Assembly (NCBI GenBank): GCA_044356325.1
Contig: JBIKWJ010000003.1
Location: forward strand, 36,749-100,748
Direction of reading: 5' to 3'
DNA: 64,000 nucleotides
From: Minisyncoccia bacterium
GTDB taxonomy: Bacteria > Patescibacteriota > Minisyncoccia > SW-4-49-11
Positions 6,012 to 39,944 of this stretch are shown piece by piece. The first letter of the stretch is position 1; every line of letters starts with the position of its first letter. A program made the position numbers and the translations under genes. The notes below the pieces were generated by a model. It saw only the letters and a program-made list of their open reading frames with translations. It made no database searches and was not told the origin of the DNA.

Positions 6012-6025
6012 CATTAAACTTTTTA

Positions 6026-7624: not shown

Positions 7625-7756
7625 ATGTGTAGTTTATGAATAATAAGAGTGTACATATATTTAATATATTAGGTTTATTTATATCTGTCAATATTTGACA
7701 GGACCGCACCCCCTAACCCCTCAACCCAACAACTTTCCAGAGTAGCATTAAATATT

Positions 7757-8077: not shown

Positions 8078-8085
8078 ATATATAA

Positions 8086-21066: not shown

Positions 21067-23445
21067 CTATTTCTTCCCCCAAGACCAAATTTTTTGAATC
21101 CCTAGCCATACAAAACCTAATATTGCGAGGATAATGAGTCCATAGGATATAATCTCAGCAATTACTACATTCCGAGATTTATGATAGCCAAATTCACATT
21201 CTGAATTAGCGGGTAATATTGCCGATTGAGTGAGCCCATTACGCTCAGGTTTGGTATCAATAGTTTTCTCTCCACAAGTCCATTTGAATTGAGGATTATA
21301 AACCTCTGCCACATTCACATTTTGATCCTTATCACCTGTTCTGACAATAGGATTATAGGAAAATGTTGCCACTACCTCATCTCCCGAGACATATTCTTGT
21401 ACCTCAGGCACTTCATAAATACGATATCCCTCTATAGTAGATTTCACCCATTTTAATTCTGATTTCCTCTCTAGAAGATAACAAGCGACCAGATTTCGCT
21501 TTTCCTTGAATCTATCATCACAATAATTATCGTAGTTCGTTGTCACAATATATTTAACATTATTCTCTCGTAGTATAGGAACCCATTCTGGCACAGAATA
21601 TTGAGGTAATATTTTTTCAAAATTATTAAATACTCTCTGATTAATAGCCATAGCTCGCGTATGATTCCAAGCTCCATCATCATCCCGAGTCAAATCGAGA
21701 ATACGATATTCCTGACTAGGATTAAGATTATCGACTAATTTTTTAGCTCTCTCAAAGCCAGGATAATGAGCCTCCATAGAAGGTACCGTATAGAATGTAT
21801 ACATTTTTAGCCCCTGATACCGAGCTGAAACTAATATCATTATCAGGAATACAGGAATAGAAAATACCCCCACCATACGCCATTGCTTTGACTTCATCTC
21901 GCTCACCACATAATACCAAGTAAGCCCACCCAAGATAGCAATACCAAGAGCAAATATCATCATAAATCTACCCGGAGTACGTAGCCCCCAAAAATAAGGG
22001 AAATACTCATTCAATACCCGATATAACCAAGACTTGCTATACCCCAGAGCCAAGTATCCCGCAATACCAGAACCAATCCAAAGAGGAAGTATATATTTGT
22101 TTCGCCTAAACCACAGAATAGATATAATACCAAAACTTGTCCAAATCAACCAAATAATACGATTATCTAGAGGAATATCCTTGAGCGAATATCCAATTTC
22201 CCCCGATACAATACCCTCTTTATTTTGAAGATATACCAGTTCTGTAATAGTAGGAGAATAATAATCTTTTACAAAAGGAACAATACGCTCCTTAGTCTGA
22301 GATTCATCCAATAAACCTGTATTGGCTCGATACCCAAAGAATGTCGGCACCAAAACATGTAGCCCCAATAAACACACAATAATCCATACCCCAGAGAATA
22401 ATCCCAAACGCCGCATTAATTCTCTCTGAGACTTATAATCAATCAAAGCAATACCCAACATAATAATTATCAGAGGAATAACATTGCTAAATACCATAGT
22501 AATCCCTGAAATCAATGTACTCAAAGCCACAATAATACCCAATACCAAAGTCCGATGTATAAGCCCAAACCAATTTGGCTTATGTCTCATCAACCATATC
22601 CAATCATTTACAATCCAAGGAAGCAAAGCATAAGCAATACCGAATTCCACCACACCATTTAATACCGAGAGATAAAATGGATTCAATATATATATAAGCG
22701 TAGCGAGAATTTGAACCCCAATACCACGACTACTTTTTGTCACCTGAGGGAGAATAGCTCTCATCAACTTTATAATACCCACAGCCGCAATACCAATACT
22801 CAAAAGCTGATGAATTTTTATCCCGAGATAAAAGTCCCCCGCCAAGAATGAAAGAATATGAGTGTATAATACCGCCCAATTACTCGTCAATATATTCCAA
22901 GCAAATCCAAATTGATAAAACCATCCAATCCAAAATGTCAAAAAAGCATCAAGATGAACAACTCCTCCCCCCATATCCAAAAAACTATTATGAGGAATAC
23001 CATCTTTAAAGAAATACTTCCCTGACACATAAATAAGAGATATACCCAATATCCCAATAATCCATATATAAATAGGGATTTTGGTGATTTGTTTGTGCCC
23101 CCAATTACCCGCTTTTTCTAAAGAACTCTCTAATCCTTTCCATCGCCATCGCTGCCCACTCCATATTTCACTAAACACCATAATACACATAAGATAAAAA
23201 ACATTCACCGCAAAAGCTTCAGCCAATTTATCTAATTTGAGAGACAAGGCAATAGGAGCGAGTACAAGAAAGGTAATCGCCCCATACCCTGCATATTTAC
23301 CATCTAATCGAAATAATATTACCACTCCAATATATGCCCAGATTAAAGATGACCATATACTTCCCAAAAGCAAAAAAGCAATCACAAAAATTGCAATAAC
23401 AATTGCTAATTTCACCCAATCTAGACCAGTAATTTCTGATTTCAT
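21067..23445 (-). CDS. Large polytopic membrane protein with a C-terminal soluble domain (GT-C-like glycosyltransferase candidate)
   Basis: 792 aa with at least 14 TM helices over about 520 aa, then a roughly 270-aa hydrophilic domain. Confidence 0.55.
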   Translation of the reverse strand: MKSEITGLDWVKLAIVIAIFVIAFLLLGSIWSSLIWAYIGVVILFRLDGKYAGYGAITFLVLAPIALSLKLDKLAEAFAVNVFYLMCIMVFSEIWSGQRWRWKGLESSLEKAGNWGHKQITKIPIYIWIIGILGISLIYVSGKYFFKDGIPHNSFLDMGGGVVHLDAFLTFWIGWFYQFGFAWNILTSNWAVLYTHILSFLAGDFYLGIKIHQLLSIGIAAVGIIKLMRAILPQVTKSSRGIGVQILATLIYILNPFYLSVLNGVVEFGIAYALLPWIVNDWIWLMRHKPNWFGLIHRTLVLGIIVALSTLISGITMVFSNVIPLIIIMLGIALIDYKSQRELMRRLGLFSGVWIIVCLLGLHVLVPTFFGYRANTGLLDESQTKERIVPFVKDYYSPTITELVYLQNKEGIVSGEIGYSLKDIPLDNRIIWLIWTSFGIISILWFRRNKYILPLWIGSGIAGYLALGYSKSWLYRVLNEYFPYFWGLRTPGRFMMIFALGIAILGGLTWYYVVSEMKSKQWRMVGVFSIPVFLIMILVSARYQGLKMYTFYTVPSMEAHYPGFERAKKLVDNLNPSQEYRILDLTRDDDGAWNHTRAMAINQRVFNNFEKILPQYSVPEWVPILRENNVKYIVTTNYDNYCDDRFKEKRNLVACYLLERKSELKWVKSTIEGYRIYEVPEVQEYVSGDEVVATFSYNPIVRTGDKDQNVNVAEVYNPQFKWTCGEKTIDTKPERNGLTQSAILPANSECEFGYHKSRNVVIAEIISYGLIILAILGFVWLGIQKIWSWGKK

Positions 23446-24424
23446 ATATATCTAATTGTATCATTTTTAGGACAATTAGCAACTTACCTACTTATACTAT
23501 AACCATCACTAAATAAAAAAGATGTGGCACAGATAAGGACTAACCCTTCACCACACGATATACATATAATTTATCCCTATACAAGCTTAAACCCACCTAC
23601 AAAGTTGAGGTGGGTAAATTATTGCTTTTTCCTTGTAGGAATATATCTAGCCTGACTATAATATATAGATTGCCAATCATCTTCTAATTGAAGCAGCCTG
23701 CATATTTGTTGTTTATATAAATATAAAGTGAGTGCTTTGTTGTGACAATGAGATTGTTTCAGCTTTTTCATATTAGCCTGTACTCTTTTAATCTCGTTTC
23801 TAATTTCTTGTATCCTCATCAGAAAACCTCCAAAAAAACACCCATCTACAATACCCAAAATGTTGATTTTTGTCAAATAAAAAGCTGTACAAAAAGCCAA
23901 AAATATGTTATTAATATGTTGGTTTTCATTATCAACCCATGACCAAAAACCATCGTTCAAAGTATCCGAGAATAATACTTATTTGTACAATTACAGCAAC
24001 CTTGTGCTTCGCAGTAGCTGCAAATGGGGCCATAAATCCCAAACAAATGCTAATATTGGCGAGTAATAATCTACATAGTTTTATCGATGACAAAACATAC
24101 CCAGATCCAAAAGATCCAAATGCTCAATGCTCAGCTATGACGCAAAGGCCTTGGAATCAAAGGTGGGGACCTTGCTGGAACTAGCGTCACATCACAACAA
24201 TACTCCATCGCAGGCAAACTGCGGTGGTTTTTTCATATATATTATTGACAAAAAATTTCTTAATGACCCAGATTTAAATAATCTCTTTGAACGGATTAAA
24301 TTACAGATACGTATAGATCAAGAAAGAGCAAAGGCAGAACAAGAATCTTTACCTAAGCAACAGGAGTAGAAAACATCAACCCCAAATCTGGCACATCTTG
24401 TGACCAGATTTTTTATTTACAGAT

Positions 24425-24722
24425 TCTGTCCACACCCACCGCAAAGCAGTCCCCCCTTCCACCTACGGTCGACAAGCTGCCGGCGAGGCCTGCCTGCGGT
24501 AGGCAGGGAGAGTTTTGAGGGCTTTCACTTCTAGCCCCCTTCGTAGGGGGGGCTTTCAGTCACCTGTATTTTGTACTAAATTCCCCTCTCTCCCTACGGG
24601 AGATAAATTGAGGGAGGTGGCCAGGCTTTGCCTGACGGGGTGGAGTAGTTTGCACTTTGCTCTTGCCCTTCTGTCCTCCCTTGGGGGAGGTGGCACGGAG
24701 TACTGGGTGTGGACTGTATTTT
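24425..24722. repeat. GC-rich mosaic hairpin repeat block R2
   Basis: Contains modules A, B, C, D and F shared with R3-R13. Confidence 0.75.
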
Positions 24723-24745
24723 TGTTTCTTATCTCCGAACCTAAT

Positions 24746-25816
24746 TCACCCAATACTTTGAAAATAATTATTCACAGCAAATTCATATTGCTCCATGAAT
24801 ATCTTTTTAAAATAAGTAATATTATTAGTCTCATAAAATAATATACTAGCCTTTTTATACTCAGCCTCAGAAACCCCTCTATAAGACAACGGGGTATAAT
24901 CACAAGCAATCAACATAGCATTAGATACAAGTCTAGCAGTCCTTTTATTCCCATCCTCAAAACCCTGTATATATGACAATAAAATCAAGCTAAAAAATGC
25001 CTTCTCAAACACATTAGAAGTCCCATTCACCAATTTCACCATAGACTTTATAGCCTCCTCAATATGAAACATATTATCTATTGGCCTATAATTAGTTCCC
25101 ACAATCCCCACTGGAGACTTTCTCAAATTATGAGTAATATTCAAATTTTTAACCAAAATCTGATGAGCTTTTTCAATAAAAGCCTGCTTCAAAACTTTAA
25201 AACTCTTTTTATGAGCTATCACAAAATCAAAAGCCTCCTTATGATTAAGGATCATTTGAGTCTCCTCCTGACTTTTACCAACCGCACTTTGATGATTTAC
25301 AATCAAAGACTCCGTATCCAAAAGAGAATAAGTGTTTCCCTCAATCTGAGAAGATTTCCACGCAAACTCAATAATTATCCTTTCAAACTCCTTATGCTTA
25401 ATCACATCACTATCTATACCCTCAAGATTACTAACAAAAGTATTATGCAAACCCTCCAAATAACTCATTTCCTCCTCCGTAAAAACTGAAGTCTCCGCCA
25501 AAAGTTTAAAAACATCAAAATTAAATTTACTATTAACTAACCTCTCATCCTGAGGAATAACAAAATACTCCTCTACATCTATAGGCCTCAAAAGAGCATA
25601 GCCGGGAGCCAAATTATACTCCACACCTCGCCCAGCACCAGTCTGCATCAAATATCCAAGCTCACATAATAATTGCAAATCCCTGACAATAGTCACGCGA
25701 GACACCTCCTCAGCCAAAAATTCCATTATATCCAAAACCGCCCCACTACTATGAGACTCAAAAAACTCTATAATTCTAAGTTGGCGAACATTAAGACCAA
25801 TATTATTCTGCTTCAT
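24746..25816 (-). CDS. Fic-family protein with N-terminal wHTH and a degenerate active-site motif
   Basis: Fic-fold region with QGFEDGNKRTAR in place of canonical HPFx(D/E)GNGRxxR. N-terminal HTH-like segment. Confidence 0.55.
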   Translation of the reverse strand: MKQNNIGLNVRQLRIIEFFESHSSGAVLDIMEFLAEEVSRVTIVRDLQLLCELGYLMQTGAGRGVEYNLAPGYALLRPIDVEEYFVIPQDERLVNSKFNFDVFKLLAETSVFTEEEMSYLEGLHNTFVSNLEGIDSDVIKHKEFERIIIEFAWKSSQIEGNTYSLLDTESLIVNHQSAVGKSQEETQMILNHKEAFDFVIAHKKSFKVLKQAFIEKAHQILVKNLNITHNLRKSPVGIVGTNYRPIDNMFHIEEAIKSMVKLVNGTSNVFEKAFFSLILLSYIQGFEDGNKRTARLVSNAMLIACDYTPLSYRGVSEAEYKKASILFYETNNITYFKKIFMEQYEFAVNNYFQSIG

Positions 25817-25896
25817 ATAAAATATATTAAATCATTAATTCAATCTAATTGTATCATAAATGATACAATTAAGCAATCGCAATGATACAATTAAAT

Positions 25897-26160
25897 CCAG
25901 CACTCCCTCCACTTCGTAGAGGCGACCTTTCAGTCACCTGTATTTTGTACTAAACTCCCCTCTCTCCCTACGGGTTTACCTCCCGTAGGGGTGGAGATAA
26001 ATTAAGGGAGGTGGCAGGGCGGTCCCTCCCATACTTTAAGTTTGGGAGGGGACGGAGGAGGACTTTTCAGACGGCGGAATGAGGACAAAAACCCCCTACT
26101 CCCCCACAGAATCACTATCTATCTTAGAGCGACTCCCCTGTTTTCGCTGACGATAAAAAG
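25897..26160. repeat. GC-rich mosaic hairpin repeat block R3
   Basis: Modules F and E. The 70-bp module E is identical to 28258-28335. Confidence 0.75.
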
Positions 26161-26236
26161 TATAGCCAAGGTAGCTAATATATATATAATTACAATTTCC
26201 TATGATATAATATAAAGACCATATTTACAAAATACT

Positions 26237-26674
26237 ATGAACAAAAATATTAAAAAATTTATAAAAAGATTTCAGGAATGGTTCATAATAAAACCAAACC
26301 TAGACATCTCAGAACACAAACCTCCCTTCTTTTCTGAAAGAGATATTTGGTGGTGTCGTTTAGGGGAGAATATAGGGATTGAAATAAGTGGCAAAGGTCG
26401 AGAGTTTGCTAGACCAGTAATAGTATTGAAGAAATTTTCACAAAGATTACTTTTAATAATACCAACTACAACAAAACTTACATTTTCTAATGGAACAGAA
26501 AAAGAGGGAGAAAGATTTATAAAATTTATTTATAATGACATTGTAATGTTAGCTTGCTTAGAACAAGTTAGAACTATAGACTATAGAAGATTAAAAAACA
26601 AATTAGGTCAATTAGATAAAAAAGATTTCAACTTGATACACACATCTTTTCAAAACTTATTTATAAAAAAATAA
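26237..26674 (+). CDS. PemK/MazF-like toxin fold protein
   Basis: RDIWWCRLGENIGIEISGKGREFARPVIVLKK...LLIIPTTTK matches the MazF/PemK core (W..dl.p..G.E..g.RP.lVl...vv.Pit). Confidence 0.5.
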   Translation: MNKNIKKFIKRFQEWFIIKPNLDISEHKPPFFSERDIWWCRLGENIGIEISGKGREFARPVIVLKKFSQRLLLIIPTTTKLTFSNGTEKEGERFIKFIYNDIVMLACLEQVRTIDYRRLKNKLGQLDKKDFNLIHTSFQNLFIKK

Positions 26675-26837
26675 GCCCTCTTGCGAGGGGCGCGGCTAGT
26701 GCCGAATACAATAGTAATATATACCAAAACTTTACATTTGTCAAGTCAAAATTTTCTGTCCCCTACTTCTTTATTTTCACAGTATTATGCTCTTTTGACT
26801 TAGAATGTTTTTTCTTCTGTCCTTCGTTGGTGAGTAT

Positions 26838-27012
26838 GGACTGAGATTTTTGTTCTCCATTCCCCTCTTGAGGGGTGGACAGCTTCGCTGGACGGGGTGG
26901 AGTATTTTGTCCTCCCTCACTAGCACTCTGTCCCTCGCTGGCAGCTTGTCGACCGTAGGTGGAAGGGTGGCACGGAGTGCCGGGTGTGGACTGAGCTTTA
27001 TTCCCCCTCTTC
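26838..27012. repeat. GC-rich mosaic hairpin repeat block R4
   Basis: Modules C, B and A in order. Confidence 0.75.
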
Positions 27013-27030
27013 CTAACCCAATAAAACCCA

Positions 27031-27094
27031 AGATACCCTAGACATAGAATCAAGGTAGTGCCCGAGATAATAATACCAAGATAAAAAATATGAT
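27031..27094 (+). repeat. 64-bp direct repeat, copy 1 (duplicate of the 3' end of the 28272..30518 gene)
   Basis: About 60/64 identical to 28345..28407. Encodes an ...ILCLGYLG... TM segment on the minus strand. Confidence 0.7.
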
Positions 27095-27126
27095 ATAATT
27101 AGTACTATATTCCAAAAATAAATATT

Positions 27127-27768
27127 ATGACTTATATTTTTTTAGATGAGAGTGGAGATTTAGGTTTTAACCTAAATAAAAGTGGGACAAGTGAAAACTT
27201 CATTATTACATTCTTTGTAATAAAAAATAAAAAGCCCTTTGATAATATTGTAAAGAAAACTCTTGCCAAAATGAATAAAGTAGAAAGAAAGTCTATACAA
27301 GGTGTTTTGCATTCTTATAAACTATTACCTAGAAGGAGAAAGAAGTTATTAAAATCTATATTAGAATATGATTTCAAGTTGATGGTAATAAGGTTAAATA
27401 AATCCAAAGTATACACACATTTACATAATGAAAAGCAGGTAGTTTACAATTATATAACCAATATATTACTAAATAGAATATTAGATAAAAAACTAATAGA
27501 CACTGATCAAAAAGTTCATCTTATAGCATCAAGAAGAGAAACAAATAAATTTCTAAATTCAAATTTTAAAAATTACTTAAAGAATAAAGCTCAAAAAAAC
27601 CATTCTATTGATATAGATATAAATATTGCATTATCCAATCAGGAAAAGTGTTTACAGATAGTAGATCTGATAAGCTGGTCATATTTCAGACACATAGAAC
27701 ACAAAGATAGTAGCTACTACAATATAATCAAAGAGATGATGGAAGAAGAAGTAATTTTGTTCCAATAA
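27127..27768 (+). CDS. DUF3800-family protein
   Basis: N-terminal IFLDESGDLGF is the DUF3800 hallmark. 213 aa. Confidence 0.55.
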   Translation: MTYIFLDESGDLGFNLNKSGTSENFIITFFVIKNKKPFDNIVKKTLAKMNKVERKSIQGVLHSYKLLPRRRKKLLKSILEYDFKLMVIRLNKSKVYTHLHNEKQVVYNYITNILLNRILDKKLIDTDQKVHLIASRRETNKFLNSNFKNYLKNKAQKNHSIDIDINIALSNQEKCLQIVDLISWSYFRHIEHKDSSYYNIIKEMMEEEVILFQ

Positions 27769-27924
27769 AACAAAACCCTAAGTGCCATTTAGAGGAACCA
27801 TACGGAGCCTCACACTTAGGGAATTACTTGTTGATTAGATTATAACAAATATACTCAAGTTTTGTCAAGACAAAAGCTCTCCCCTACTTCTTAATCTTAA
27901 TTACACTCTTAGACTTATTTTTCT

Positions 27925-28336
27925 TCTGTCCTTTATGTCTGTCCCTGCCTACCGTAGGTATGGCCTCCCTACTCACCTGTCCTCCCTTTTTTAATCCACC
28001 TTGGGTGGAGGGGGTGCCTGCAAGGCAGGGGTGGATGTATTTTGCAATTTGAGCTTTTGTCTCCCTTAGGAGGCTTTCGTCCCTCCTATATTTATTTAGG
28101 AGGGGGAGTACCCGCAGGGGGAGGGTGGATCAAACTCAAAATAAAATACTAAAATAATAACTGAGTTATAAAATTACAATTATCCACCTCCGGCACTCCG
28201 TGCCACCTCCTCCAACTACCTACGGATTTACCTCCCGTAGGGATGGAGTTAAAAAGGAGGACAAAAACCCCCTACTCCCCCACAGAATCACTATCTATCT
28301 TAGAGCGACTCCCCTGTTTTCGCTGACGATAAAAGG
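27925..28336. repeat. GC-rich mosaic hairpin repeat block R5
   Basis: Modules B, D, H and A, ending in the 70-bp module E. Confidence 0.75.
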
Positions 28337-30518
28337 AATACCCTAGATACCCTAGACAAAGAATCAAAGTAGTGCCCGAGATAATAATACCAAGGTAAAA
28401 ATATGATTGAGGTTTGAAGTATAAAGTTAGCTCTAGATCTATACTTCCATCTAGATTCTCCTTGTACATAGACTTATCAAAATTAGCTTTGATATACTCA
28501 GGGTCAATAGTCCATTGATTAGCATAGTCATATACAAGTTTATGGGTGTCTTCAAAGAGGGGTTTTTGGAATAAAATATTTATATCACGCTGGGTAGCAT
28601 ATTTAAATTGTGTATCATTGTAATGTTGAATATTAGGGTTTTGATTATCTAGATAAAGTTTATACTGCTTATTAAATCCTTCTAAAAAGTTTAATTGTGT
28701 ATTATCCTTTATCCCCTTCAAACTAATATTATATTGAGTGATATTGGTTTTAGTAAATGAATATTCTTGATTATCTGGCAGAACTATTTTAGGAGTAAAA
28801 ATTTCATCTGGAACTTTATATAAACTTAAATATTGATTGTCTATAATTTTGGTAACATTCGTAGAGTTTACAATTTCAATCATTTTATTTATATCTTTTT
28901 CTTTATCAAAAATATCTTTACGTATTAAAATATATTTAATATTAGTATTTTGTAATACATTAATATCTTTAGTTTCAACAAATTGTTTTAACAAATCATC
29001 TTGTAAAGAATCATAGTATACAGGATTTTCTCTTATTAGAGTAGCAATAATATCTCTTCCTATATATAATTTTTTATTGGTATCATAAACTCTAAAACCT
29101 CCAGATTCTGGTAAACTTAAAACTTTGTAAAAGTCTTTATCCTCATTTAAATAAGTCACTGTATCTGTATATTCCTGAGGGACATCAAATACATATGATC
29201 CACTATTTGGATAATTATCTTTAGATAATACGACTTCTTTTGTCAAGAATGGATATGAAAATAGTATAACTAAAAAAATAATATATAGACCAAATACATA
29301 TCTAATAGTCTTCTTATTATAGGAAGAGAATATGTATAGAAAAATAATAATAACTGTAATAGGAATTAATACCGAGAATTTATTATCAGGAGAGCGGACA
29401 GCACCAAACAATGATATATTATCAAGTAAAAAAGAATATATCCCTCCAAAGGGGGGTAATGGCCCTTTTGCAAAAAATATACTTATTAACAATATAGTTA
29501 TATACGGTAGTATTTTATGTCTAATAGCCTTTGCTAGAAGGGCAATGGTCATTACAATATATATTGATAATGAACTTAGGATAAACAGAGGCCCATTAAT
29601 ATATGTTGAGAACGTATAAAGACTCTTAGAGGTCCAAGAAGTATATATTGGCCAATGATAGTGTCCCTTCAAAATTGTTAATATGCCACCTTGAACCAAA
29701 TTATTTGTAGAATTAATTAAATTATTGGCAACAAAACTTTGATCTTTAGCCTGTACTAAAAAGGGTATAATAGTTGGCAGTCCTATAATAATTAAAAATG
29801 GAACTATTATTATAGTCCTATTAATAAAACATTTCCACCTAATTTGTGAGAAATGGAATCCTATCAAGATTATAGATAAGAAAATAATAGGAATTACATA
29901 CGTAATATGAAATAAGATAATACTACTTAATAGTATCAGCCATATAAGCCCTATATTACTTATATTTGATTTAATAAGTTTTAAAAGATAATATACAAAA
30001 AGTGGTATAGCACCATAGGAGATATATGATATTGAGAAAAAAATACCATTATTTATATTGCTAATATTAAATGGGTTAACAAAATAAAATAAAGTAGTTA
30101 AAATTATAATAAAGTAATCCTCTCTCTTTAAAAGTTGTTTATTTACGATATACTCATAATATATAAAATATATACCTAAAAATGATAGTATTAAGATAGA
30201 TGTTTGTATAAAAAAATATAGAATAATTGTTGTTTGCCCAAAAGATATTCCTGTTATCGTATGTATTATCATTTGAAATAAATCTGTAACTAAAAATTGA
30301 TATGGATTTACAGCCTGAAACATATCAAATCCATTATAAAAGGGTGGCTTTATAATCAATGAATTATTAAAAAAACTATATGCTGAATTTACCGATAAGG
30401 TATCATGAACTACTAATAAATTGTTTTGTTTAAAATTTAAAAATAGATATCCCGTTATCAATAAACTGAAAAACACAAGCCCTACACAAATGATTATTAT
30501 ATTTTTACTTTTTACCAT
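28272..30518 (-). CDS. Large polytopic membrane protein with a C-terminal periplasmic domain (GT-C-like). Last codons lie in repeat R5.
   Basis: 748 aa with about 13 TM helices, then a roughly 330-aa hydrophilic domain and a final TM. Overlaps the upstream methyltransferase by 14 nt. Confidence 0.55.
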   Translation of the reverse strand: MVKSKNIIIICVGLVFFSLLITGYLFLNFKQNNLLVVHDTLSVNSAYSFFNNSLIIKPPFYNGFDMFQAVNPYQFLVTDLFQMIIHTITGISFGQTTIILYFFIQTSILILSFLGIYFIYYEYIVNKQLLKREDYFIIILTTLFYFVNPFNISNINNGIFFSISYISYGAIPLFVYYLLKLIKSNISNIGLIWLILLSSIILFHITYVIPIIFLSIILIGFHFSQIRWKCFINRTIIIVPFLIIIGLPTIIPFLVQAKDQSFVANNLINSTNNLVQGGILTILKGHYHWPIYTSWTSKSLYTFSTYINGPLFILSSLSIYIVMTIALLAKAIRHKILPYITILLISIFFAKGPLPPFGGIYSFLLDNISLFGAVRSPDNKFSVLIPITVIIIFLYIFSSYNKKTIRYVFGLYIIFLVILFSYPFLTKEVVLSKDNYPNSGSYVFDVPQEYTDTVTYLNEDKDFYKVLSLPESGGFRVYDTNKKLYIGRDIIATLIRENPVYYDSLQDDLLKQFVETKDINVLQNTNIKYILIRKDIFDKEKDINKMIEIVNSTNVTKIIDNQYLSLYKVPDEIFTPKIVLPDNQEYSFTKTNITQYNISLKGIKDNTQLNFLEGFNKQYKLYLDNQNPNIQHYNDTQFKYATQRDINILFQKPLFEDTHKLVYDYANQWTIDPEYIKANFDKSMYKENLDGSIDLELTLYFKPQSYFYLGIIISGTTLILCLGYLGYSFYRQRKQGSRSKIDSDSVGE

Positions 30519-31380
30519 ATACCATATAAACCGCTCCTGTAAAAATATTGTTTTGAAGTATATAATATATTTTCCTCAAAAAATCATTTTTCATCTTTTC
30601 CTCAGATGGATAAAATGCAAAAGAAGACACAATTATATTATTAAACTGATTACTTTTATGTAATTTTTTTAATTTATAGGTGGTATAACTTAGTTCATAT
30701 CCATAATAACGTTCTAGAACTTTGCCTTTTAATAGATTTATATGGATATACTCCAATACTTGTCGTATTCCTAGTATATCTGGAATATTATTAAAAAATC
30801 GAAATATCCACCACAAATTAAAAGCAGGGACAGTATTAAATGATACTCCCCCAGGTCTTAATACTCTATAACTCTCCTTTAAGATATTATTGGTATCTTT
30901 AAAATGCTCAATTACCCCTCCCCCATAAATAAAATCTACACTATTGTCTTTTAAGGGCATATTATTGATATCATCATAAATAAGAATATATTTTGTATAT
31001 TTTTTTTCATCAAAATATTTTTTGAGAGTTAAAAGCATTTCATAGTTAAAATCTATTCCAACAAAATAAGCATTATACGTCTCTAGCACATAGTCTGCAA
31101 TATGAGCAGGCCCACAACCAATTTCTAAATATATTGAATCTTGATTTATAGTATAAGCTTTTTCAATATATCTAATAGCATCTTTTAATTTACTCTCATT
31201 AAAATCTTCCCGATCTTTTTTTAATTTTTCCAAACTAAAATCATAAATTTTAGTCCAAGCTTTTTTTGAAATAGCGATGTCTTGACCGTCGCTAAATTCT
31301 TTTAGTGACTTATTTACATAAATTCCATTATTATCAACAGATAATTTCCCTTCTTTTATAATTTCATTTAAATTTAGCAT
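30505..31380 (-). CDS. Class I SAM-dependent methyltransferase
   Basis: Motif I LEIGCGPAH. Confidence 0.65.
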   Translation of the reverse strand: MLNLNEIIKEGKLSVDNNGIYVNKSLKEFSDGQDIAISKKAWTKIYDFSLEKLKKDREDFNESKLKDAIRYIEKAYTINQDSIYLEIGCGPAHIADYVLETYNAYFVGIDFNYEMLLTLKKYFDEKKYTKYILIYDDINNMPLKDNSVDFIYGGGVIEHFKDTNNILKESYRVLRPGGVSFNTVPAFNLWWIFRFFNNIPDILGIRQVLEYIHINLLKGKVLERYYGYELSYTTYKLKKLHKSNQFNNIIVSSFAFYPSEEKMKNDFLRKIYYILQNNIFTGAVYMVYGKK

Positions 31381-33355: not shown

Positions 33356-33416
33356 ATTTAAATAATTTCATTTTATTATATCACAAATAGTTTATAGTGC
33401 TAAACTCGGTCTACCA

Positions 33417-33742
33417 TCCCCTGAGGGAGGGGGTGAGAGCAGTCCACACCCGGCACTTTGTGACACCCTTCCACCTACGGTCGACAAGCTGCCAGCGAGG
33501 CCTGCCTGCGGTAGGCAGAGACAAAAAATACCATCCACCCCGTCAGACATAGCCTGCCACCCCTCAAGAGGGGAATTTTTAGGGCAAGTTGCAAATTACA
33601 TCCACCCTCCCCCGTCGCAAATGGGATTTGCTCCTGTCCTCCTCCGTCACCTACGGTGACACCTCCCCCAAGGGAGGACAAGAGTGCAAGTTGCAAAATT
33701 AAATACAGGCGACTGAAAGGTCGCCCCTACGAGAAAGTAGGA
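33417..33742. repeat. GC-rich mosaic hairpin repeat block R6
   Basis: Modules A, B, C, D and F. Confidence 0.75.
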
Positions 33743-33760
33743 TAATAGCTTAATTTTTAA

Positions 33761-34777
33761 TTAAAAATTTATATTGGATAATCTTTTTATAATAGCTTCT
33801 TCGCTAGGTAGATATTTTGCATATTCTTTGGGGAGATTTTCGTATTTGTTATAGGTGGCTACTCCGATTGGATCTTTGGCTTGTTCTAGCATATATTCTA
33901 CTTCTGTTCTGTTTTTGTCTTTGCAGATTACGATGCCGATGGTGCGATTGTGTTGTTCTTGTTTGACTTGTTTGTTGATTAGTTGCATATACATTTGGAC
34001 TTGCCCCATATCTTTGGGTTGAAATTCTCTTGCCTTGAGTTCGAAGACTATATAGCAGTTGAGTTTGAAATTAAAAAACAAAAGATCTATAAAATACTCT
34101 TTTTCTTCTATGGTTAGTCTGTATTGTCTACCTACAAATGCGAAGCTCCCTCCCATATCTGCTAGAAAATTGACGACATTGGTGACTATGGTGTTTTCTA
34201 TTTCCTTCTCGCTAAATGGTTGGTCGGGGCTGATTAGCTCTATATTATAATCATCTACAAACTCCCAAGCGACTTGGGCTTTGAGTGTGTCTAGGATGGT
34301 GGTGTTGAAATTGTTCTGAGCTAGGGCTTGATTTTCGAAATGGTGAGATTTTATTTTATCTATTAGGTCTAGTTTTGACCAGCCCATTTGTTTGGTCTTT
34401 TTGAGGTAGTATTCTTTTTGAATATCGTCTTTACATTTTTCAAAAATAAGTTTGTTTTGTATCCAGCCAATTTCTCGCACCAGTGGAGCGAGTTTTTTAT
34501 TATCTTTGTATGTTTCATAAAAAGTTTTCATTCTCCATAGATTGGATGCTGAAAAACCTTTAATTCCTGGGAATTCTCTTTGTAAATCTTTGGATAATTG
34601 TTCTACTATGGATTTCCCCCATCCTTGATCTTGCATTTGCTGGCTGACTGATTTTCCTATTTCCCAATATAATTCTACTGTCTGTTTGCTGACTGTTTTG
34701 AGCATTTCATATCTGGCTGATTGGATTTTGGTTAGAATTTGCTCTAAAAATGGTTGGTATTGGGTGATTTGTGTCAT
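33761..34777 (-). CDS. YhcG-family (DUF1016) PD-(D/E)XK nuclease
   Basis: N-terminal ELYWEIGKSV and C-terminal IDLLFFNFKLNCYIVFELKAREFQPKDMGQVQMYM (PDDEXK core) are typical of DUF1016/YhcG. Confidence 0.7.
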   Translation of the reverse strand: MTQITQYQPFLEQILTKIQSARYEMLKTVSKQTVELYWEIGKSVSQQMQDQGWGKSIVEQLSKDLQREFPGIKGFSASNLWRMKTFYETYKDNKKLAPLVREIGWIQNKLIFEKCKDDIQKEYYLKKTKQMGWSKLDLIDKIKSHHFENQALAQNNFNTTILDTLKAQVAWEFVDDYNIELISPDQPFSEKEIENTIVTNVVNFLADMGGSFAFVGRQYRLTIEEKEYFIDLLFFNFKLNCYIVFELKAREFQPKDMGQVQMYMQLINKQVKQEQHNRTIGIVICKDKNRTEVEYMLEQAKDPIGVATYNKYENLPKEYAKYLPSEEAIIKRLSNINF

Positions 34778-34840
34778 ATTTTGATTTAGTATATGGTTTT
34801 ATTATAACATGGGAAAAATAATTATGAATTAATTAATTAC

Positions 34841-35030
34841 CATCCACCCTCCCCCTTCGGGTACTCCCTCCTAAGGGAGACAAAAGCTCAAGTAACAAAA
34901 TCCACCCCGTCCAGCGAAGCTGTCCACCCCTCAAGAGGGGAATTTAGTACAAAATACAGTCCTCCTCCGTCACCTACGGTGACACCTCCCCCAAGGGAGG
35001 ACAGAAGGGAAGAAGCTCAGTCCACCCTAT
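34841..35030. repeat. GC-rich mosaic hairpin repeat block R7
   Basis: Modules C and D. Confidence 0.75.
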
Positions 35031-35090
35031 TCTATATTTTTTATAAAAGATATGTTATAATAAATATAGGATAAAAAATAATAAACATAT

Positions 35091-37502: not shown

Positions 37503-37555
37503 AGTTTTTAGATAAAATACTATCAATCATGCTCCGTCCCTCTCATATAAATATA

Positions 37556-37656
37556 GGAGGACAGTGTATTATGTTCCTGCCTACCGCAGGCAGGCCTCAC
37601 TGGTAGCTTGTCGACCATAGGTGGAAGGGGGACCACGTCAGTGGTGGGTGTGGACA
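37556..37656. repeat. GC-rich mosaic hairpin repeat block R8
   Basis: Module B in reverse orientation, then module A. Confidence 0.7.
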
Positions 37657-37684
37657 AACCTAATCTTCTTATAGGAAGATTACT

Positions 37685-38059
37685 TTACAACAAAATCTTA
37701 CTCTTAATAAAATCCTCCAGTATAGGGGTTATACTATTTATAGATTTGAGTACTTCTTCATCAGTAAATCGTAACACAGTAAAACCTAAATTTTCTAAAT
37801 ACCTTTGCCTTATTAGGTCATTTTCATAAATTTCAGGGTGATTATGGCTTTCTCCATCTACTTCAATGATGAGTTTTAATTCTAGACAAATAAAATCTAC
37901 AACATATTTACCTATTGGTCTCTGTCTTCTAAATATAACTCCTAGTTTTTTACCTTTTAATATATATTTCCAGAGACTAGCCTCTGCTTTTGTCATTGAT
38001 TTACGAAGTTTGTGAGCAATGGGTTGTAATTGAGAATTATAATTATTATTTTGTTTCAT
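37685..38059 (-). CDS. DUF559 (Vsr-like endonuclease fold) protein
   Basis: YVVDFICLELKLIIEVDGESH...RQRYLENLGFTVLRF matches the DUF559 core. Confidence 0.65.
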   Translation of the reverse strand: MKQNNNYNSQLQPIAHKLRKSMTKAEASLWKYILKGKKLGVIFRRQRPIGKYVVDFICLELKLIIEVDGESHNHPEIYENDLIRQRYLENLGFTVLRFTDEEVLKSINSITPILEDFIKSKILL

Positions 38060-38095
38060 AGGAAAATATTATTCCTATGGGGGTATTGCTGAGTA

Positions 38096-38320
38096 CTGTC
38101 CACACCCACCACTAACGTGGTTCCCCCTCGCCAGCGAGGGACAAAAAGCTTTGTCCTCCCTTGGGGGAGGTGCCTGCAAGGCGGAGGAGGATATACCTTA
38201 CCAGCTACCTCCTCCGTCGCAAACAGGATTTGCTCCTGTGAAACCTCACGGTTTCCCAAACCTTCCTACACGGGAAAACTCCCGTTTTCCCGACCCCTTT
38301 CCCGGAGGCAGAAGCTTACC
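38096..38320. repeat. GC-rich mosaic hairpin repeat block R9
   Basis: Modules A, D and G, plus the gcttaccagctaccgcctccg module that extends into the 3' end of the DUF2207 gene. Confidence 0.7.
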
Positions 38321-39944
38321 AGCTACCGCCTCCGCCTCCACCAGAGCCACCACCAGCAGAACCTCCACCAGATGAGGCTGATGACATAGTGGAAGATAAT
38401 GAGCTATCTATACTACTGACAAAATCAGTTGGAATAAATACTACTCCATTATTAGAATGATACCAATCTGGATTGGTTGTAATAAGTCCTTCAAAGGCTT
38501 TTGCCCATACTGTTGCCAGCCCAAGAGCAATGGCAAAAGGTAATATTTCAAAAAATATATATTCTTTTTCTTGGAATTGTAATCTATCTTTTTCTGCTAC
38601 TCTAATATATTCTTCTAGTCCTAGAATATGTTCTAATACTCTTGTCCCCTCTTCTGTTCTCTTTGGGGCATAAAATGCTGAGATAGCGGCCAATATTGCT
38701 AGAATATTTAATGATATTGCAATCCATCCTGAAATAAACACCCCAATAATAAAAGCTAATATGAATAGGCCTACTACTATGACACCTAATATACTTCTTG
38801 GTATATTGGGATTTATTGCAAAATATTGTTTCACCTCATCTCTATATATGCTCTTATATATTATATTAAATTTATCCCCTATATGCTCATCTGTTAAATC
38901 TTTCGTAGTGACAGTTTTTCTCTTACCTTTAAATAATATACCTAATAATTCCTGCTCAAATGGCTTTAATGTTTTACCCTTTGGTATATCTTTGAGGTCA
39001 AATTGAAATATCCCATTACTAAACCATTTCTTCTCTTCTATTTGGGTTATATTGAGTATGCCTTGTTGCGCAAGGGATATAATAGTAGCAGATATCTCTA
39101 CTGGGGTTGAATAAGTGTTCTTGAACCGTATAATTGCAGCTGGGCTCATACCCTTTGGTGCATCATATTGTCTTACTATAGGTGTGCGGATTTTGGGGTC
39201 TCTTGCCCAAGCATTCCAGACAAAATATAATATTAAACTTCCTATGATGAGAATTACCCCCGCAATACTCTTATATATAAGCTCTTGATTCTCTTCCCAC
39301 CAAGTTGGAGGGGTAAGTGTACCAAGTGGAAATCCTATTGCAAAAGTTAACCCTTCTCCCGCTGCAAGTGATTGATTAGATGTTATCTCAATAGTACGAG
39401 CATTTGTCCAAGTAATAGTACAGTCTTGCGCTTTTGATGAAGACATACCGGTATAACAATATAATTTGTCCCCGACTTTGTCTTGTAAATCTTCTGGTAA
39501 TAGAATTGTTGCGGAAGCTTGCTCTATGGGGACTTCCCAGTCAGTTCCTGTTATTTGCCAATATAATTCATCTCTATCTTGGAGTTTTTCGATCACGCCC
39601 TTTACTTGATAGGTAATACTATATTGATTGAGGCCTGTAAGGTATATATCTGCATCTCCTATTTTGATATTAATTTCTCCACCCCGACTAATTTCCTGAG
39701 TTGCCGCCCTCCCATTTTGTAATGCCTGTATATCCCCTTGTATATTAATTCCTTTGAGGGGAATTGTCCGATAAATTCCACGCCTTTCATTTTCTCCAAA
39801 ATCATAGGATATATTCTCCTCTACTTGTATACTCCTATCAGTATTGACTGTAATAGTACTCTTAAAATCTCGTATAGTCTCGGCTGATACCAATACTGGG
39901 AAAATATATAAAACTATTGCGATCAGAGCATATTGAGCTTTCAT
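38316..39944 (-). CDS. DUF2207-like membrane protein with a C-terminal Gly-rich tail
   Basis: Signal peptide, a roughly 200-aa extracytoplasmic domain, TM helices and a C-terminal SGGGSAGGGSGGGGGGSW tail. Confidence 0.5.
   Translation of the reverse strand: MKAQYALIAIVLYIFPVLVSAETIRDFKSTITVNTDRSIQVEENISYDFGENERRGIYRTIPLKGINIQGDIQALQNGRAATQEISRGGEINIKIGDADIYLTGLNQYSITYQVKGVIEKLQDRDELYWQITGTDWEVPIEQASATILLPEDLQDKVGDKLYCYTGMSSSKAQDCTITWTNARTIEITSNQSLAAGEGLTFAIGFPLGTLTPPTWWEENQELIYKSIAGVILIIGSLILYFVWNAWARDPKIRTPIVRQYDAPKGMSPAAIIRFKNTYSTPVEISATIISLAQQGILNITQIEEKKWFSNGIFQFDLKDIPKGKTLKPFEQELLGILFKGKRKTVTTKDLTDEHIGDKFNIIYKSIYRDEVKQYFAINPNIPRSILGVIVVGLFILAFIIGVFISGWIAISLNILAILAAISAFYAPKRTEEGTRVLEHILGLEEYIRVAEKDRLQFQEKEYIFFEILPFAIALGLATVWAKAFEGLITTNPDWYHSNNGVVFIPTDFVSSIDSSLSSTMSSASSGGGSAGGGSGGGGGGSW

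What the first reader, a model, noticed from the sequence alone, without database searches (positions are those of the whole stretch)
24425..28410. Repeat-riddled island carrying a degenerate-motif Fic, a MazF/PemK-like toxin and a DUF3800 gene
Five mosaic repeat blocks (R2-R5) alternate with three small defence or addiction-type genes: Fic with N-terminal HTH (24746..25816), a MazF/PemK-fold protein (26237..26674) and DUF3800 (27127..27768). There is no recognisable antitoxin ORF next to the MazF-like gene. The island may be a hot spot where the repeats mediate gene capture. DUF3800 and MazF-like proteins recur in phage-defence and abortive-infection contexts, so an undescribed defence module is possible.
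Basis: partly seen in the sequence, partly recalled or inferred. Interest (0 to 1): 0.65.

Follow-up and report, generated by a model that had tools for sequence, protein, structure and literature searches.

The report
Nuclease genes paired with convergent small RNAs
A strain-variable gene slot in an uncultivated freshwater bacterium holds three unrelated single-gene cassettes, and two of them (a MazF-like RNase and a DUF3800 RNase H-like nuclease) each come with a conserved small RNA gene facing them, which probably takes the place of the missing antitoxin protein.

Summary
The three genes and the repeats are at the stated coordinates. They are not one system. Among 80 DUF3800 loci and 80 MazF-like loci from other genomes, the genes co-occur almost only in this lineage.

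The main result is that two of the genes are each half of a protein–sRNA pair.
- The MazF-like gene has no conserved protein partner. It is followed on the opposite strand by a consensus promoter and a ~45-nt two-hairpin RNA, found in 63 of 80 loci.
- The DUF3800 gene has an RNase HII-like predicted fold. It is followed the same way by a ~65-nt structured RNA, present in all 80 loci, with 14 of 20 base pairs covarying.
- Neither RNA matches any Rfam 15 family.

I infer that the RNAs are antitoxin-like partners. That mechanism is untested.

The Fic protein carries a conserved non-canonical motif, QxFxDGNKRxxR, not a decayed one.

Each cassette is bracketed by direct copies of the 3' end of the neighbouring membrane-protein gene. 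Other strains carry different cassettes in the same slot. The GC-rich mosaic repeats occur at about 11 sites across the window.

Verdict: a real accessory-gene hot spot holding two RNA-partnered nuclease modules, which I rate a new variant of a known kind.

The parts
23487..28253 (.). Strain-variable segment between two conserved paralogous membrane-protein genes (792 aa, 21067-23445; 748 aa, 28272-30518)
   Evidence: In L007/L008 the flanks align at 92-94% up to 23486. The segment 23487-26760 is replaced there by a DUF3800 paralogue with its own RNA.
24414..24728 (.). GC-rich mosaic repeat block B1. It contains D5 copy a (24536-24600).
24746..25816 (-). HTH-Fic protein (356 aa) with the conserved non-canonical motif QxFxDGNKRxxR
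   Evidence: Pfam Fic at 1.4e-9. 119 of 120 homologues carry the same motif. PADLOC hits PDC-S04 and SoFic.
25846..25894 (.). Fic promoter and operator region with three ATGATACAATTA boxes, one on the - strand and two on the + strand
   Evidence: Read from the sequence. Equivalent repeated boxes lie upstream of four Fic homologues, with lineage-specific sequence.
25909..26173 (.). Mosaic block B2. It contains D5 copy b (25909-25974) and D1' (26078-26173). D1' is a 94% copy of the last 78 coding bases plus 18 downstream bases of the 748-aa gene.
26201..26211 (+). Candidate extended -10 promoter (TATGATATAAT) of the MazF-like gene
   Evidence: Read from the sequence. The same 11-mer lies upstream of DUF3800.
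26237..26674 (+). MazF/PemK-like endoribonuclease (145 aa) with a ~26-residue N-terminal extension
   Evidence: Pfam PemK at 2.3e-9. The family profile aligns to B. subtilis EndoA over the whole toxin domain. R59 and T79 are invariant.
26665..26710 (-). Convergent ~45-nt small RNA: 5' hairpin CGGC-ACUA-GCCG, then CG, then terminator hairpin CCCUC-GCAA-GAGGG with a U-tract that overlaps the MazF stop codon
   Evidence: Model R2 scores 44.6 bits, E 3e-9. The 5' hairpin covaries and the loops are GNRA on this strand. A terminator is called at 26689-26676.
26716..26744 (-). Promoter of the MazF-associated sRNA: TTGACA, 17 nt, TATATT (11 of 12)
   Evidence: The position is conserved in 38 of 45 loci.
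26737..26824 (.). S3, the shared 3' cassette-end motif. Its second copy lies at 27861-27933.
   Evidence: 73% identity over 88 nt. It is a recombination junction in L004 and L009.
26763..27094 (-). Truncated copy of the C-terminal transmembrane helix plus low-complexity tail of the membrane-protein gene (mosaic block B3). It includes D3' (27023-27094).
   Evidence: ORF translation, compared with the C-terminus of the 773-aa protein of L007. D3 identity is 92%.
27089..27099 (+). Candidate extended -10 promoter (TATGATATAAT) of DUF3800
   Evidence: Read from the sequence.
27127..27768 (+). DUF3800 protein (213 aa), predicted RNase HII-like nuclease. Invariant residues include D7, E8, Q177 and D180.
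   Evidence: Pfam. Alignment. AlphaFold2 pLDDT 86. Best Foldseek match is RNase HII 1eke, E 1e-5, TM 0.58.
27769..27833 (-). Convergent ~65-nt structured small RNA with helices P1 to P4, ending at the DUF3800 stop codon
   Evidence: Model R1 scores 77.9 bits, E 1e-18, and this is the only copy in the window. 97.6% of cells are paired and 14 of 20 pairs are compensatory. Folding energy -23.8 kcal/mol, z -4.5.
27839..27868 (-). Promoter of the DUF3800-associated sRNA: TTGACA, 18 nt, TG-n-TATAAT (12 of 12)
   Evidence: A promoter of at least 10 of 12 is present in 49 of 77 loci, against 1 of 77 on the control strand.
27934..28253 (.). Mosaic block B4, made of short GC-rich hairpin modules
28254..28407 (-). 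D1 plus D3, the authentic 3' end of the 748-aa membrane-protein gene. Its copies bracket the cassettes.

Best explanation
The locus is an accessory-gene slot at the 3' end of a membrane-protein gene, inside a glycan-biosynthesis cluster. The organism is an uncultivated freshwater bacterium, probably Patescibacteria related to Saccharibacteria. The slot holds three independent cassettes, each with its own promoter.

1. An HTH-Fic protein with the conserved non-canonical motif QxFxDGNKRxxR. Repeated operator-like boxes lie upstream, so it is probably autoregulated.
2. A MazF-like endoribonuclease whose only conserved partner is a ~45-nt small RNA. The RNA is transcribed towards the gene from a consensus promoter and ends at the gene's stop codon.
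3. A DUF3800 protein with an RNase HII-like predicted fold, paired in the same tail-to-tail way with a ~65-nt structured small RNA.

Shown here:
- the pairs exist and are conserved as units across hundreds of genomes;
- the RNA strand, the promoters and the RNA structures;
- the absence of any conserved protein partner;
- shuffling of the cassettes between strains.

Inferred:
- Each RNA neutralises its nuclease, so each pair behaves as a toxin plus RNA-antitoxin module for addiction or abortive infection. I favour direct RNA-protein binding, as in type III systems. A pure cis-antisense mechanism would not need the loop and bulge sequences to stay constant across phyla.
- Cassettes enter, leave and swap by recombination at D1 and D3, the direct copies of the gene's 3' end. 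The genome-wide GC-rich mosaic repeats provide further homology.
For: Independent modules.
- The co-occurrence test fails outside this lineage.
- No protein family recurs within 2.5 kb of either gene. The best is 4 of 80 loci for DUF3800 and 7 of 77 for MazF-like.
- No conserved ORF lies upstream of MazF-like genes in 64 loci.

DUF3800 RNA.
- It is present directly after the stop codon in all 80 species-level loci.
- 97.6% of cells are paired, against about 45% for slid controls. 14 of 20 pairs show compensatory change. One pair is G-U in 68 of 76 sequences.
- Folding is better on the strand opposite the gene in 77 of 77 loci.
- A promoter of at least 10 of 12 occurs in 49 of 77 loci, against 1 of 77 on the control strand, at a fixed distance from the motif.
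- A 42%-identical DUF3800 paralogue in L007 has its own copy.

MazF RNA.
- The model finds it at the gene end, on the opposite strand, in 63 of 80 loci.
- The 5' hairpin covaries: C-G 19 against U-A 17, and G-C 24 against C-G 21.
- The second hairpin has 36 distinct stem sequences among 42 loci. Its loops are GNRA on that strand, and six 5' hairpins carry UUCG loops. 32 of 42 have a T-rich tail.
- A promoter of at least 10 of 12 occurs in 33 of 45 loci, against 0 of 45 on the control strand.

Nuclease nature.
- The MazF-like profile matches EndoA and MazF structures, with the catalytic Arg and Thr conserved.
- The DUF3800 model matches RNase HII, in line with PMC7736814 and PMC10910872.

Precedent.
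- The abiF RNA motif proved to be a protein-binding RNA antitoxin (PMC12373285).
- DUF3800 genes are already known to be accompanied by 11 unrelated RNA motifs (PMC5737381).

Cassette shuffling.
-.
Against: - There is no expression data, so the small RNAs are predicted, not observed.
- Toxicity has not been shown for either protein, and no DUF3800 protein has a demonstrated activity (PMC5737381; 10.64898/2026.08.25.746378).
- The window's own MazF sRNA is not unusually stable (z -1.3), and about a quarter of loci lack a U-tract after the second hairpin.
- The MazF-like structure model was too poor to use (pLDDT 57).
- No recombinase lies within the 64 kb apart from a resolvase fragment at 56890-57192, so the insertion mechanism is open.
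- In a Nitratiruptor plasmid, a distant MazF-like gene is followed by a similar element but also by a small ORF that looks, by eye, like a ribbon-helix-helix protein. That ORF could be a protein antitoxin.
Confidence: 0.6

Rival explanations
1. The small RNAs are classical cis-antisense regulators, as in type I systems. They act only by pairing with the fully complementary 3' end of the nuclease mRNA, which triggers its degradation. They do not bind the protein.
For: The transcripts are convergent and tail-to-tail, and the terminator hairpin abuts the stop codon. From my own knowledge, this is the layout of par/Fst of pAD1 and of TxpA/RatA and BsrG/SR4 in B. subtilis.
Against: Cis-antisense pairing is complementary by construction and does not require sequence conservation. 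Here the loops, bulges and junctions are 90-100% conserved across phyla in which the proteins are only about 50% identical. The RNAs show no complementarity to their own mRNA's translation start above background.
Confidence: 0.25
2. The DUF3800 RNA is a cofactor or guide of a ribonucleoprotein nuclease, not an inhibitor. The RNase H-like protein uses it to recognise a nucleic-acid target.
For: The predicted fold is RNase HII-like. The RNA is strictly coupled to the gene and covaries strongly. DUF3800 domains accompany Cas12a2/a3, Cas13 and retron systems (PMC10910872, PMC13594972, PMC7736814).
Against: The RNA has no variable, spacer-like segment. The only variable part is an optional inserted hairpin. 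No target is known.
Confidence: 0.12
3. One reading: Fic, the MazF-like protein and DUF3800 act together as one undescribed defence system.
For: They are adjacent here and in closely related strains. Relatives L018 and L178 also mix these cassettes.
Against: Outside this lineage the genes almost never co-occur: 2 of 80, 0 of 80, 1 of 80 and 1 of 80 loci. Order, orientation and content differ between strains. Each gene has its own promoter, and two have their own RNA partner.
Confidence: 0.04
4. The conserved elements are structures in the 3' untranslated region of the mRNA, on the gene's strand. They would act as stabilisers or terminators, and no separate RNA gene exists.
For: The elements start 0-25 nt after the stop codon. 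The + strand of the window's copy also folds well.
Against: G-U pairs on the opposite strand would be C-A mismatches on the gene strand, including one pair in 68 of 76 sequences. Folding energy is lower on the opposite strand in 77 of 77 loci. GNRA and UUCG loops appear only on the opposite strand. Near-consensus promoters sit at a fixed distance on the opposite strand and not on the control strand.
Confidence: 0.05
5. The array is an integron or another recombinase-driven cassette array with attC-like sites.
For: The cassettes are single genes with repeated boundary elements (D1, D3, S3), and their order varies between strains.
Against: No integrase lies within 64 kb. The cassettes carry their own promoters and lie in both orientations. 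The boundary repeats are copies of the flanking gene's 3' end, not imperfect palindromes.
Confidence: 0.04

Closest known systems
DUF3800-associated RNA motifs DUF3800-I to -XI (Weinberg et al. 2017, PMC5737381)
   Same: A conserved structured RNA lies next to a DUF3800 gene, on either strand, often with a terminator. Its function is unknown.
   Different: This motif matches no Rfam 15 family at gathering score or at E up to 10. Rfam 15 includes at least DUF3800-I and -IX. The motif has its own consensus promoter and a fixed tail-to-tail position at the stop codon. I could not compare it with all eleven published alignments because the supplement is not held.
Type III toxin-antitoxin systems (ToxIN family) and the AbiF/RCd22 system (PMC12373285)
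   Same: An endoribonuclease-type protein is kept in check by a structured non-coding RNA encoded beside it, with no protein antitoxin. From my own knowledge, the ToxN fold is related to Kid/MazF.
   Different: The RNA here is a single-copy gene that is convergent with and downstream of the protein gene. In type III systems the RNA is a tandem repeat array upstream on the same strand. Binding and processing are untested here.
Type I toxin-antitoxin loci with convergent transcripts that share a terminator (par/Fst of pAD1; TxpA/RatA and BsrG/SR4 of B. subtilis; from my own knowledge)
   Same: A small RNA with its own promoter runs convergent to the toxin gene and overlaps its 3' end.
   Different: Those toxins are small membrane peptides. 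Here the proteins are soluble nucleases of 145 and 213 residues, and the RNA sequence itself is conserved across phyla.
Type II MazEF / PemIK
   Same: The toxin domain and the catalytic Arg and Thr are shared.
   Different: There is no MazE/PemI gene and no conserved neighbouring ORF at all. The protein carries an extra N-terminal helix of about 26 residues.
Fic AMPylases and the Doc kinase
   Same: The Fic fold is shared, and FICD is the nearest solved relative. The NKR in the motif resembles Doc (from my own knowledge).
   Different: The catalytic His is Gln in 119 of 120 family members. The protein has an N-terminal HTH domain and upstream operator repeats. A second Fic in the window (57279-58373) has the canonical motif HPFGDGNGRLGR.
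BIME/REP mosaic intergenic repeats of enterobacteria, and tandem accretion of att-flanked elements such as CIMEs and tycheposons (from my own knowledge)
   Same: Short GC-rich hairpin modules are combined in varying order at gene ends. Cargo genes are bracketed by direct copies of the 3' end of a target gene.
   Different: There is no sequence relationship. No RAYT transposase or integrase was seen in the window. The mechanism was not tested.

Membership tests
Type II MazEF/PemIK toxin-antitoxin | MazF/PemK-fold toxin | tested here: met
   Pfam PF02452 at 37.9 bits, above the 23.1 cut-off. The family profile hits EndoA and MazF chains.
Type II MazEF/PemIK toxin-antitoxin | Adjacent co-transcribed protein antitoxin (MazE/PemI) | tested here: not met
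   There is no ORF in the window. Upstream ORFs form no cluster larger than 2 across 64 loci. No neighbouring family occurs in more than 7 of 77 loci.
Type III toxin-antitoxin (ToxIN-like) | Antitoxin RNA made of tandem direct repeats, upstream of the toxin on the same strand | tested here: not met
   The RNA is a single-copy gene, downstream and on the opposite strand. The repeat scan of 22000-31000 shows no tandem array upstream of the MazF-like gene.
Type III toxin-antitoxin (ToxIN-like) | The RNA binds and inhibits the endoribonuclease toxin | not testable with these tools
   This needs co-expression and binding experiments.
Type I toxin-antitoxin | Small hydrophobic toxin peptide | tested here: not met
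   The proteins are 145 and 213 residues long and have nuclease-type domains.
Type I toxin-antitoxin | A cis-encoded antisense small RNA overlaps the toxin transcript | tested here: inconclusive
   The layout, promoters and terminators fit. The transcripts and their overlap have not been observed.
DUF3800-associated RNA motifs (Weinberg 2017) | A conserved structured RNA lies next to a DUF3800 gene | tested here: met
   Present in 80 of 80 loci, with covariation and support from model R1.
DUF3800-associated RNA motifs (Weinberg 2017) | Match to one of the described motifs I to XI | tested here: not met
   No Rfam 15 hit in the window or in 20 DUF3800 loci, at gathering score or at E up to 1-10. 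I could not verify that all eleven motifs are in Rfam.
Fic AMPylase | Catalytic motif HxFx(D/E)GNGRxxR | tested here: not met
   The motif is QGFEDGNKRTAR here and Q..NKR in 119 of 120 homologues.
Fic/Doc superfamily | Fic domain | tested here: met
   PF02661 at 39.1 bits, above the cut-off of 24. FICD structures match at E 2e-6.
RNase H2 (RNase HII) | RNase HII fold with an N-terminal adjacent Asp-Glu and further carboxylates | tested here: met
   The model has pLDDT 86 and matches 1eke at E 1e-5, TM 0.58. D7, E8 and D180 are invariant and D116 nearly so. This shows fold resemblance only, since sequence identity is 18%.
RNase H2 (RNase HII) | Cleavage of the RNA strand in RNA-DNA hybrids | not testable with these tools
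   This needs a biochemical assay.
Integron cassette array | Integron integrase next to the array | tested here: not met
   No integrase or transposase domain is recorded for any called gene in the 64 kb. There is only a 100-residue resolvase fragment at 56890-57192.
Known anti-phage defence systems (PADLOC-DB 2.0) | Profile match of the component proteins | tested here: not met
   Only the Fic matches (the candidate family PDC-S04 and SoFic). The MazF-like and DUF3800 proteins have no hit.

The most novel reading that the evidence does not exclude
The MazF-like and DUF3800 modules would represent a widespread but undescribed class of tail-to-tail nuclease plus small-RNA systems. In this class a convergently transcribed, structured small RNA neutralises or licenses the nuclease by binding it, taking the place of a protein antitoxin. 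That would give the first MazF-family toxins with an RNA antitoxin. It would also give a tractable minimal model, one gene plus one 65-nt RNA, for why DUF3800 proteins always travel with non-coding RNAs.
Probability: 0.35. Interest if true: 0.8.

Novelty: new variant of a known kind. Interest (0 to 1): 0.62.

Why it matters
- MazF toxins are the textbook type II family. A large branch that lacks MazE but keeps a conserved small RNA gene would blur the boundaries between toxin-antitoxin types. It would also explain many "orphan" MazF annotations in metagenomes.
- DUF3800 has been linked to non-coding RNAs since 2017 and to retrons, Cas12a2/a3 and Cas13 loci since then, with no function known. 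The pair described here is the simplest form of that association. It occurs in at least 501 species-level genomes, so it makes the question directly testable.
- The locus documents how genomes of this uncultivated lineage, probably Patescibacteria, exchange accessory genes. Cassettes swap at a single slot, bounded by copies of a gene's 3' end, with no visible recombinase.

Tried and rejected
- Rfam scans found no family for either RNA, including pemK and the DUF3800 motifs. I ran them on the whole window, on the island at E up to 10, and on 54 related loci.
- The supplement of Weinberg 2017, which holds the motif alignments, is not available.
- The AlphaFold2 model of the MazF-like protein was unusable (pLDDT 57), so I say nothing about its N-terminal helix.
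- Protein searches of cultured phage genomes gave no match for either protein. Plasmid searches gave only distant hits.
- I tested whether the small RNAs pair with the 5' region of their own mRNA. They do no better than with unrelated mRNAs.
- A column-wise covariation model of the second MazF-RNA hairpin failed because stem lengths vary. I used per-sequence folding instead.
- The cluster look-up returned no organism names. The taxon rests on the depositor's name for the related contig L018, which shares the repeats and cassettes.
- I considered that the GC-rich blocks are only coding tails of membrane proteins. I rejected this as a full explanation because the same modules occur inverted at non-coding sites such as 33440-33576.
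- I considered an integron and rejected it, as set out under the rival explanations.

Full report
**Observation.**
- Fic, 24746-25816 on the - strand.
- PemK/MazF, 26237-26674 on the + strand.
- DUF3800, 27127-27768 on the + strand.

The Fic motif reads IQGFEDGNKRTAR. The intergenic blocks between the genes are GC-rich in a genome of about 33% GC. They share modules in both orientations. The region recurs identically in independent assemblies from several samples, so it is not an assembly artefact.

Two corrections are needed. First, the same repeat modules occur at seven other intergenic sites in the window. There they bracket other accessory genes: YhcG at 33761-34777, DUF559 at 37685-38059, and an unknown ORF at 51361-51843. 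Second, compared with a related strain the variable segment begins at 23487.

**Organism and setting.** The flanking genes encode glycosyltransferases, methyltransferases, a polysaccharide flippase-type protein, a ricin-type lectin and two paralogous polytopic proteins of 792 and 748 residues. Elsewhere the window carries a heliorhodopsin gene and few recognisable metabolic genes. The closest public genome fragment is L018, named Candidatus Saccharibacteria by its depositor. It shares the DUF3800 cassette at 90% nucleotide identity and the same repeat family. I therefore treat the organism as a freshwater member of the Patescibacteria related to Saccharibacteria. This is an inference.

**The three genes are not one system.** I fetched 80 loci around DUF3800 homologues from species-representative genomes and 80 loci around MazF-like homologues from metagenomes.
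- Among the DUF3800 loci, 2 hold a MazF-like gene and none holds this type of Fic.
- Among the MazF-like loci, 1 holds DUF3800 and 1 holds a Fic.
- Most of these exceptions belong to the window's own lineage: L018 and L114.

Within 2.5 kb of either gene no protein family recurs in more than 4 of 80 loci (DUF3800) or 7 of 77 loci (MazF-like). PADLOC recognises only the Fic.

**The DUF3800 gene travels with a convergent structured RNA.** In all 80 loci the stop codon is followed within 0-25 nt by a conserved element of about 65 nt.

I aligned 77 copies on the strand opposite the gene and counted pairs for four helices.
- 97.6% of cells are paired, against 35-53% when the partners are slid.
- 14 of 20 pairs show changes on both sides.
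- No shuffle out of 500 reached the observed values.
- One pair is G-U in 68 of 76 sequences. It would be a C-A mismatch on the gene's strand.

The fold is more stable on the opposite strand in 77 of 77 loci, by 9.3 kcal/mol on average. A TTGACA/TATAAT promoter matching at least 10 of 12 positions lies on that strand in 49 of 77 loci, against 1 of 77 on the control strand. Its -10 box ends 4-7 nt before the motif in 52 loci.

In the window the promoter is a perfect 12 of 12 with an extended -10 (27868-27839). The RNA spans 27833-27769, folds at -23.8 kcal/mol (z -4.5) and ends in GGGUUUUGUUUUA at the DUF3800 stop codon. A covariance model finds exactly one copy in the window. It also finds a separate copy beside the 42%-identical DUF3800 paralogue of L007/L008, again convergent.

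**The MazF-like gene has the same architecture.** Directly after its stop codon comes a variable GC-rich hairpin. Next comes an invariant CG, then a short conserved hairpin, and then the reverse complements of a -10 and a -35 box.

On the opposite strand this reads as promoter, then 5'-AYAUUYGGS-loop-SCCRCG, then a terminator hairpin.
- The 5' hairpin covaries: C-G 19 against U-A 17, and G-C 24 against C-G 21.
- The second hairpin has 6-11 pairs (15 in one locus) in 42 of 45 loci, with 36 distinct stem sequences. Its loops on that strand are GNRA (GCAA 23, GAAA 5, GUAA 1). A T-rich tail follows in 32 of 42 loci.
- Six 5' hairpins carry UUCG loops.
- The promoter matches at least 10 of 12 positions in 33 of 45 loci, against 0 of 45 on the control strand. 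The spacing is fixed in 38 of 45 loci.
- A model built on these sequences finds the element at the gene's end, on the opposite strand, in 63 of 80 loci. Several of the remaining loci are cut by contig ends.

In the window the promoter is 26744-26716 (11 of 12) and the RNA is about 26710-26665. On its own this copy is not unusually stable (z -1.3), so the case rests on the comparative evidence.

No conserved ORF lies upstream of the gene in 64 loci.

**Neither RNA is in Rfam 15.** Scans of the window, of the island at E up to 10, and of 54 related loci returned no relevant family. That includes the pemK motif and the DUF3800 motifs. At least DUF3800-I and DUF3800-IX are in that release.

The association of DUF3800 genes with eleven unrelated RNA motifs of unknown function is published (PMC5737381). 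The DUF3800 RNA here is therefore a further member of a known phenomenon. I found no report of a MazF-family gene coupled to a conserved convergent small RNA.

**The proteins.**
- MazF-like. The family profile aligns with B. subtilis EndoA and other MazF structures across the toxin domain. The residues aligned with the catalytic Arg and Thr (R59 and T79) are invariant. About 26 extra N-terminal residues are predicted helical, but that model is unreliable.
- DUF3800. The protein is 50-58% identical across Patescibacteria, Ignavibacteria, Bacteroidota, Gammaproteobacteria, Verrucomicrobia, Nitrospirae and others, which points to horizontal spread. Its AlphaFold2 model (pLDDT 86) matches archaeal RNase HII (1eke, E 1e-5, TM 0.58). 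D7, E8, Q177 and D180 are invariant. This agrees with earlier modelling (PMC7736814, PMC10910872). No DUF3800 protein has a demonstrated activity.
- Fic. 119 of its 120 closest relatives carry QxFxDGNKRxxR. The motif is a conserved variant that lacks the catalytic His, not a decayed one. Repeated 12-nt boxes lie upstream of the gene here and in four homologues, with lineage-specific sequences. This fits autoregulation through the N-terminal HTH domain, which is an inference. I saw no conserved RNA partner for the Fic.

**Mechanism.** These steps are shown:
- two protein-RNA pairs are conserved as units;
- the RNA strand, promoters and structures are defined;
- no protein partner is conserved.

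The rest is inferred. Each RNA probably counteracts its nuclease. When transcription stops, or the cassette is lost, the nuclease would be released, which is the logic of addiction or abortive infection.

I favour direct RNA-protein binding, as in type III systems, over pure antisense action. A cis-antisense pair is complementary by construction, so it would not need the invariant loop and junction nucleotides seen across phyla. The abiF motif, another RNA first found by its link to a protein domain, turned out to work by direct binding (PMC12373285). The RNAs show no specific complementarity to the 5' region of their own mRNAs.

Antisense action at the overlapping 3' ends remains a serious rival. 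A cofactor or guide role for the DUF3800 RNA also cannot be excluded.

**The repeats and the hot spot.** A map of boundary elements shows that every cassette is bracketed by direct repeats.
- Fic is bracketed by D5 (66 nt, 91% identity).
- DUF3800 is bracketed by D3 (72 nt, 92% identity).
- The MazF-to-DUF3800 stretch is bracketed by D1 (96 nt, 94% identity).

D1 plus D3 together are the last ~150 nt of the 748-aa gene. Block B3 is a truncated copy of that gene's C-terminal helix and tail.

Other strains fill the same slot differently.

| Locus | Content of the slot |
|---|---|
| L098 | D3, MazF with its RNA, D3 |
| L007 | D3, DUF3800 with its RNA, D3 |
| L009 | DUF3800 followed by MazF |
| L018 | D1, DUF3800, D1 D3, MazF paralogue, D1, MazF paralogue |
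| L178 | MazF, D1, Fic, orphan small-RNA copies, D1 |

This pattern fits serial insertion at the gene's 3' end with duplication of the target, or homologous exchange between the copies. No recombinase is visible within the 64 kb, so the mechanism remains open.

The remaining GC-rich material is a mosaic of short hairpin modules, comparable in organisation to enterobacterial BIMEs. In some strains part of it is read as the low-complexity C-terminal tail of the membrane protein.

**Verdict.** It is wrong on the joint defence module.

The valuable result is the pair of nuclease plus convergent small-RNA modules. Each is conserved in hundreds of genomes and absent from Rfam. The DUF3800 pair is a new member of a known association. 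The MazF-like pair is a new variant of RNA-controlled toxin systems. The function of both is inferred, not shown.

Noticed in passing
window 57279-58373 (-) and 56890-57192 (-): A second Fic protein has Fic_N, the canonical motif HPFGDGNGRLGR and a C-terminal HTH-like region. It lies next to a 100-residue resolvase fragment. It makes a useful contrast with the Q..NKR Fic of the island.
   Followed up: partly
window 25846-25894 and 23453-23479: ATGATACAATTA boxes, which contain an extended -10-like TGATACAAT, are repeated three times upstream of the Fic gene. A similar palindrome lies just upstream of the 792-aa membrane-protein gene. Fic homologues elsewhere have three or four lineage-specific boxes of the same type (L181: AAATGTCACAATTA; L183: AAATGTCATGATTA).
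   Followed up: partly
L178 2852-2966 and 3036-3079: In a related strain, two copies of the MazF-type small RNA and a fragment of the DUF3800-type RNA lie in a 940-nt stretch with no called gene. They may be antitoxin-only remnants or decayed cassettes.
   Followed up: no
window 23619-24411: Two unannotated small genes belong to the variable segment. One is a 113-aa ORF (23619-23960, -) with its own terminator hairpin at 23592-23616. The other is a pair of overlapping ORFs (23939-24184 and 24127-24369, +) that may be one frameshifted gene, followed by a terminator at 24384-24411. Neither has a Pfam hit.
   Followed up: partly
window 33390-35035 and 37553-38396: The YhcG/DUF1016 nuclease gene (33761-34777) and the DUF559 endonuclease-like gene (37685-38059) are each flanked on both sides by the same GC-rich mosaic repeats. 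Accessory genes throughout the window therefore appear to be repeat-bracketed cassettes.
   Followed up: partly
L007 10874-13195 against window 28272-30518: In another strain the large membrane protein reads on into the GC-rich repeat material as a Pro/Gly/Ser/Gln-rich C-terminal tail (...KLSPHPEPRATLASEGQKGSEGQNTSTPALQAPPPPKVD). Part of the 'non-coding' mosaic is therefore translated in some strains.
   Followed up: partly
L185 (Nitratiruptor plasmid NZ_AP023062.1) 1492-2152: A distant MazF-like gene on a plasmid of a Campylobacterota bacterium is followed by a comparable two-hairpin element with a TATAAT on the opposite strand. It is also followed by a 62-residue ORF that looks, by eye, like a ribbon-helix-helix protein and could be a protein antitoxin or a copy-control protein.
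   Followed up: no
window 47367-48203 (+): A heliorhodopsin gene (PF18761) lies in this small, AT-rich genome.
   Followed up: no
window 5979-6350 / 7713-8084 and 6948-7497 / 9378-9933: The self-comparison shows two pairs of internally duplicated coding segments among hypothetical genes upstream of the glycan cluster.
   Followed up: no
A3 alignment rows L021, L044, L056, L083, L097: Five copies of the DUF3800-associated RNA carry an extra hairpin inserted at the same junction, between P3 and the 3' strand of P2. The site therefore tolerates a variable-length insertion.
   Followed up: no
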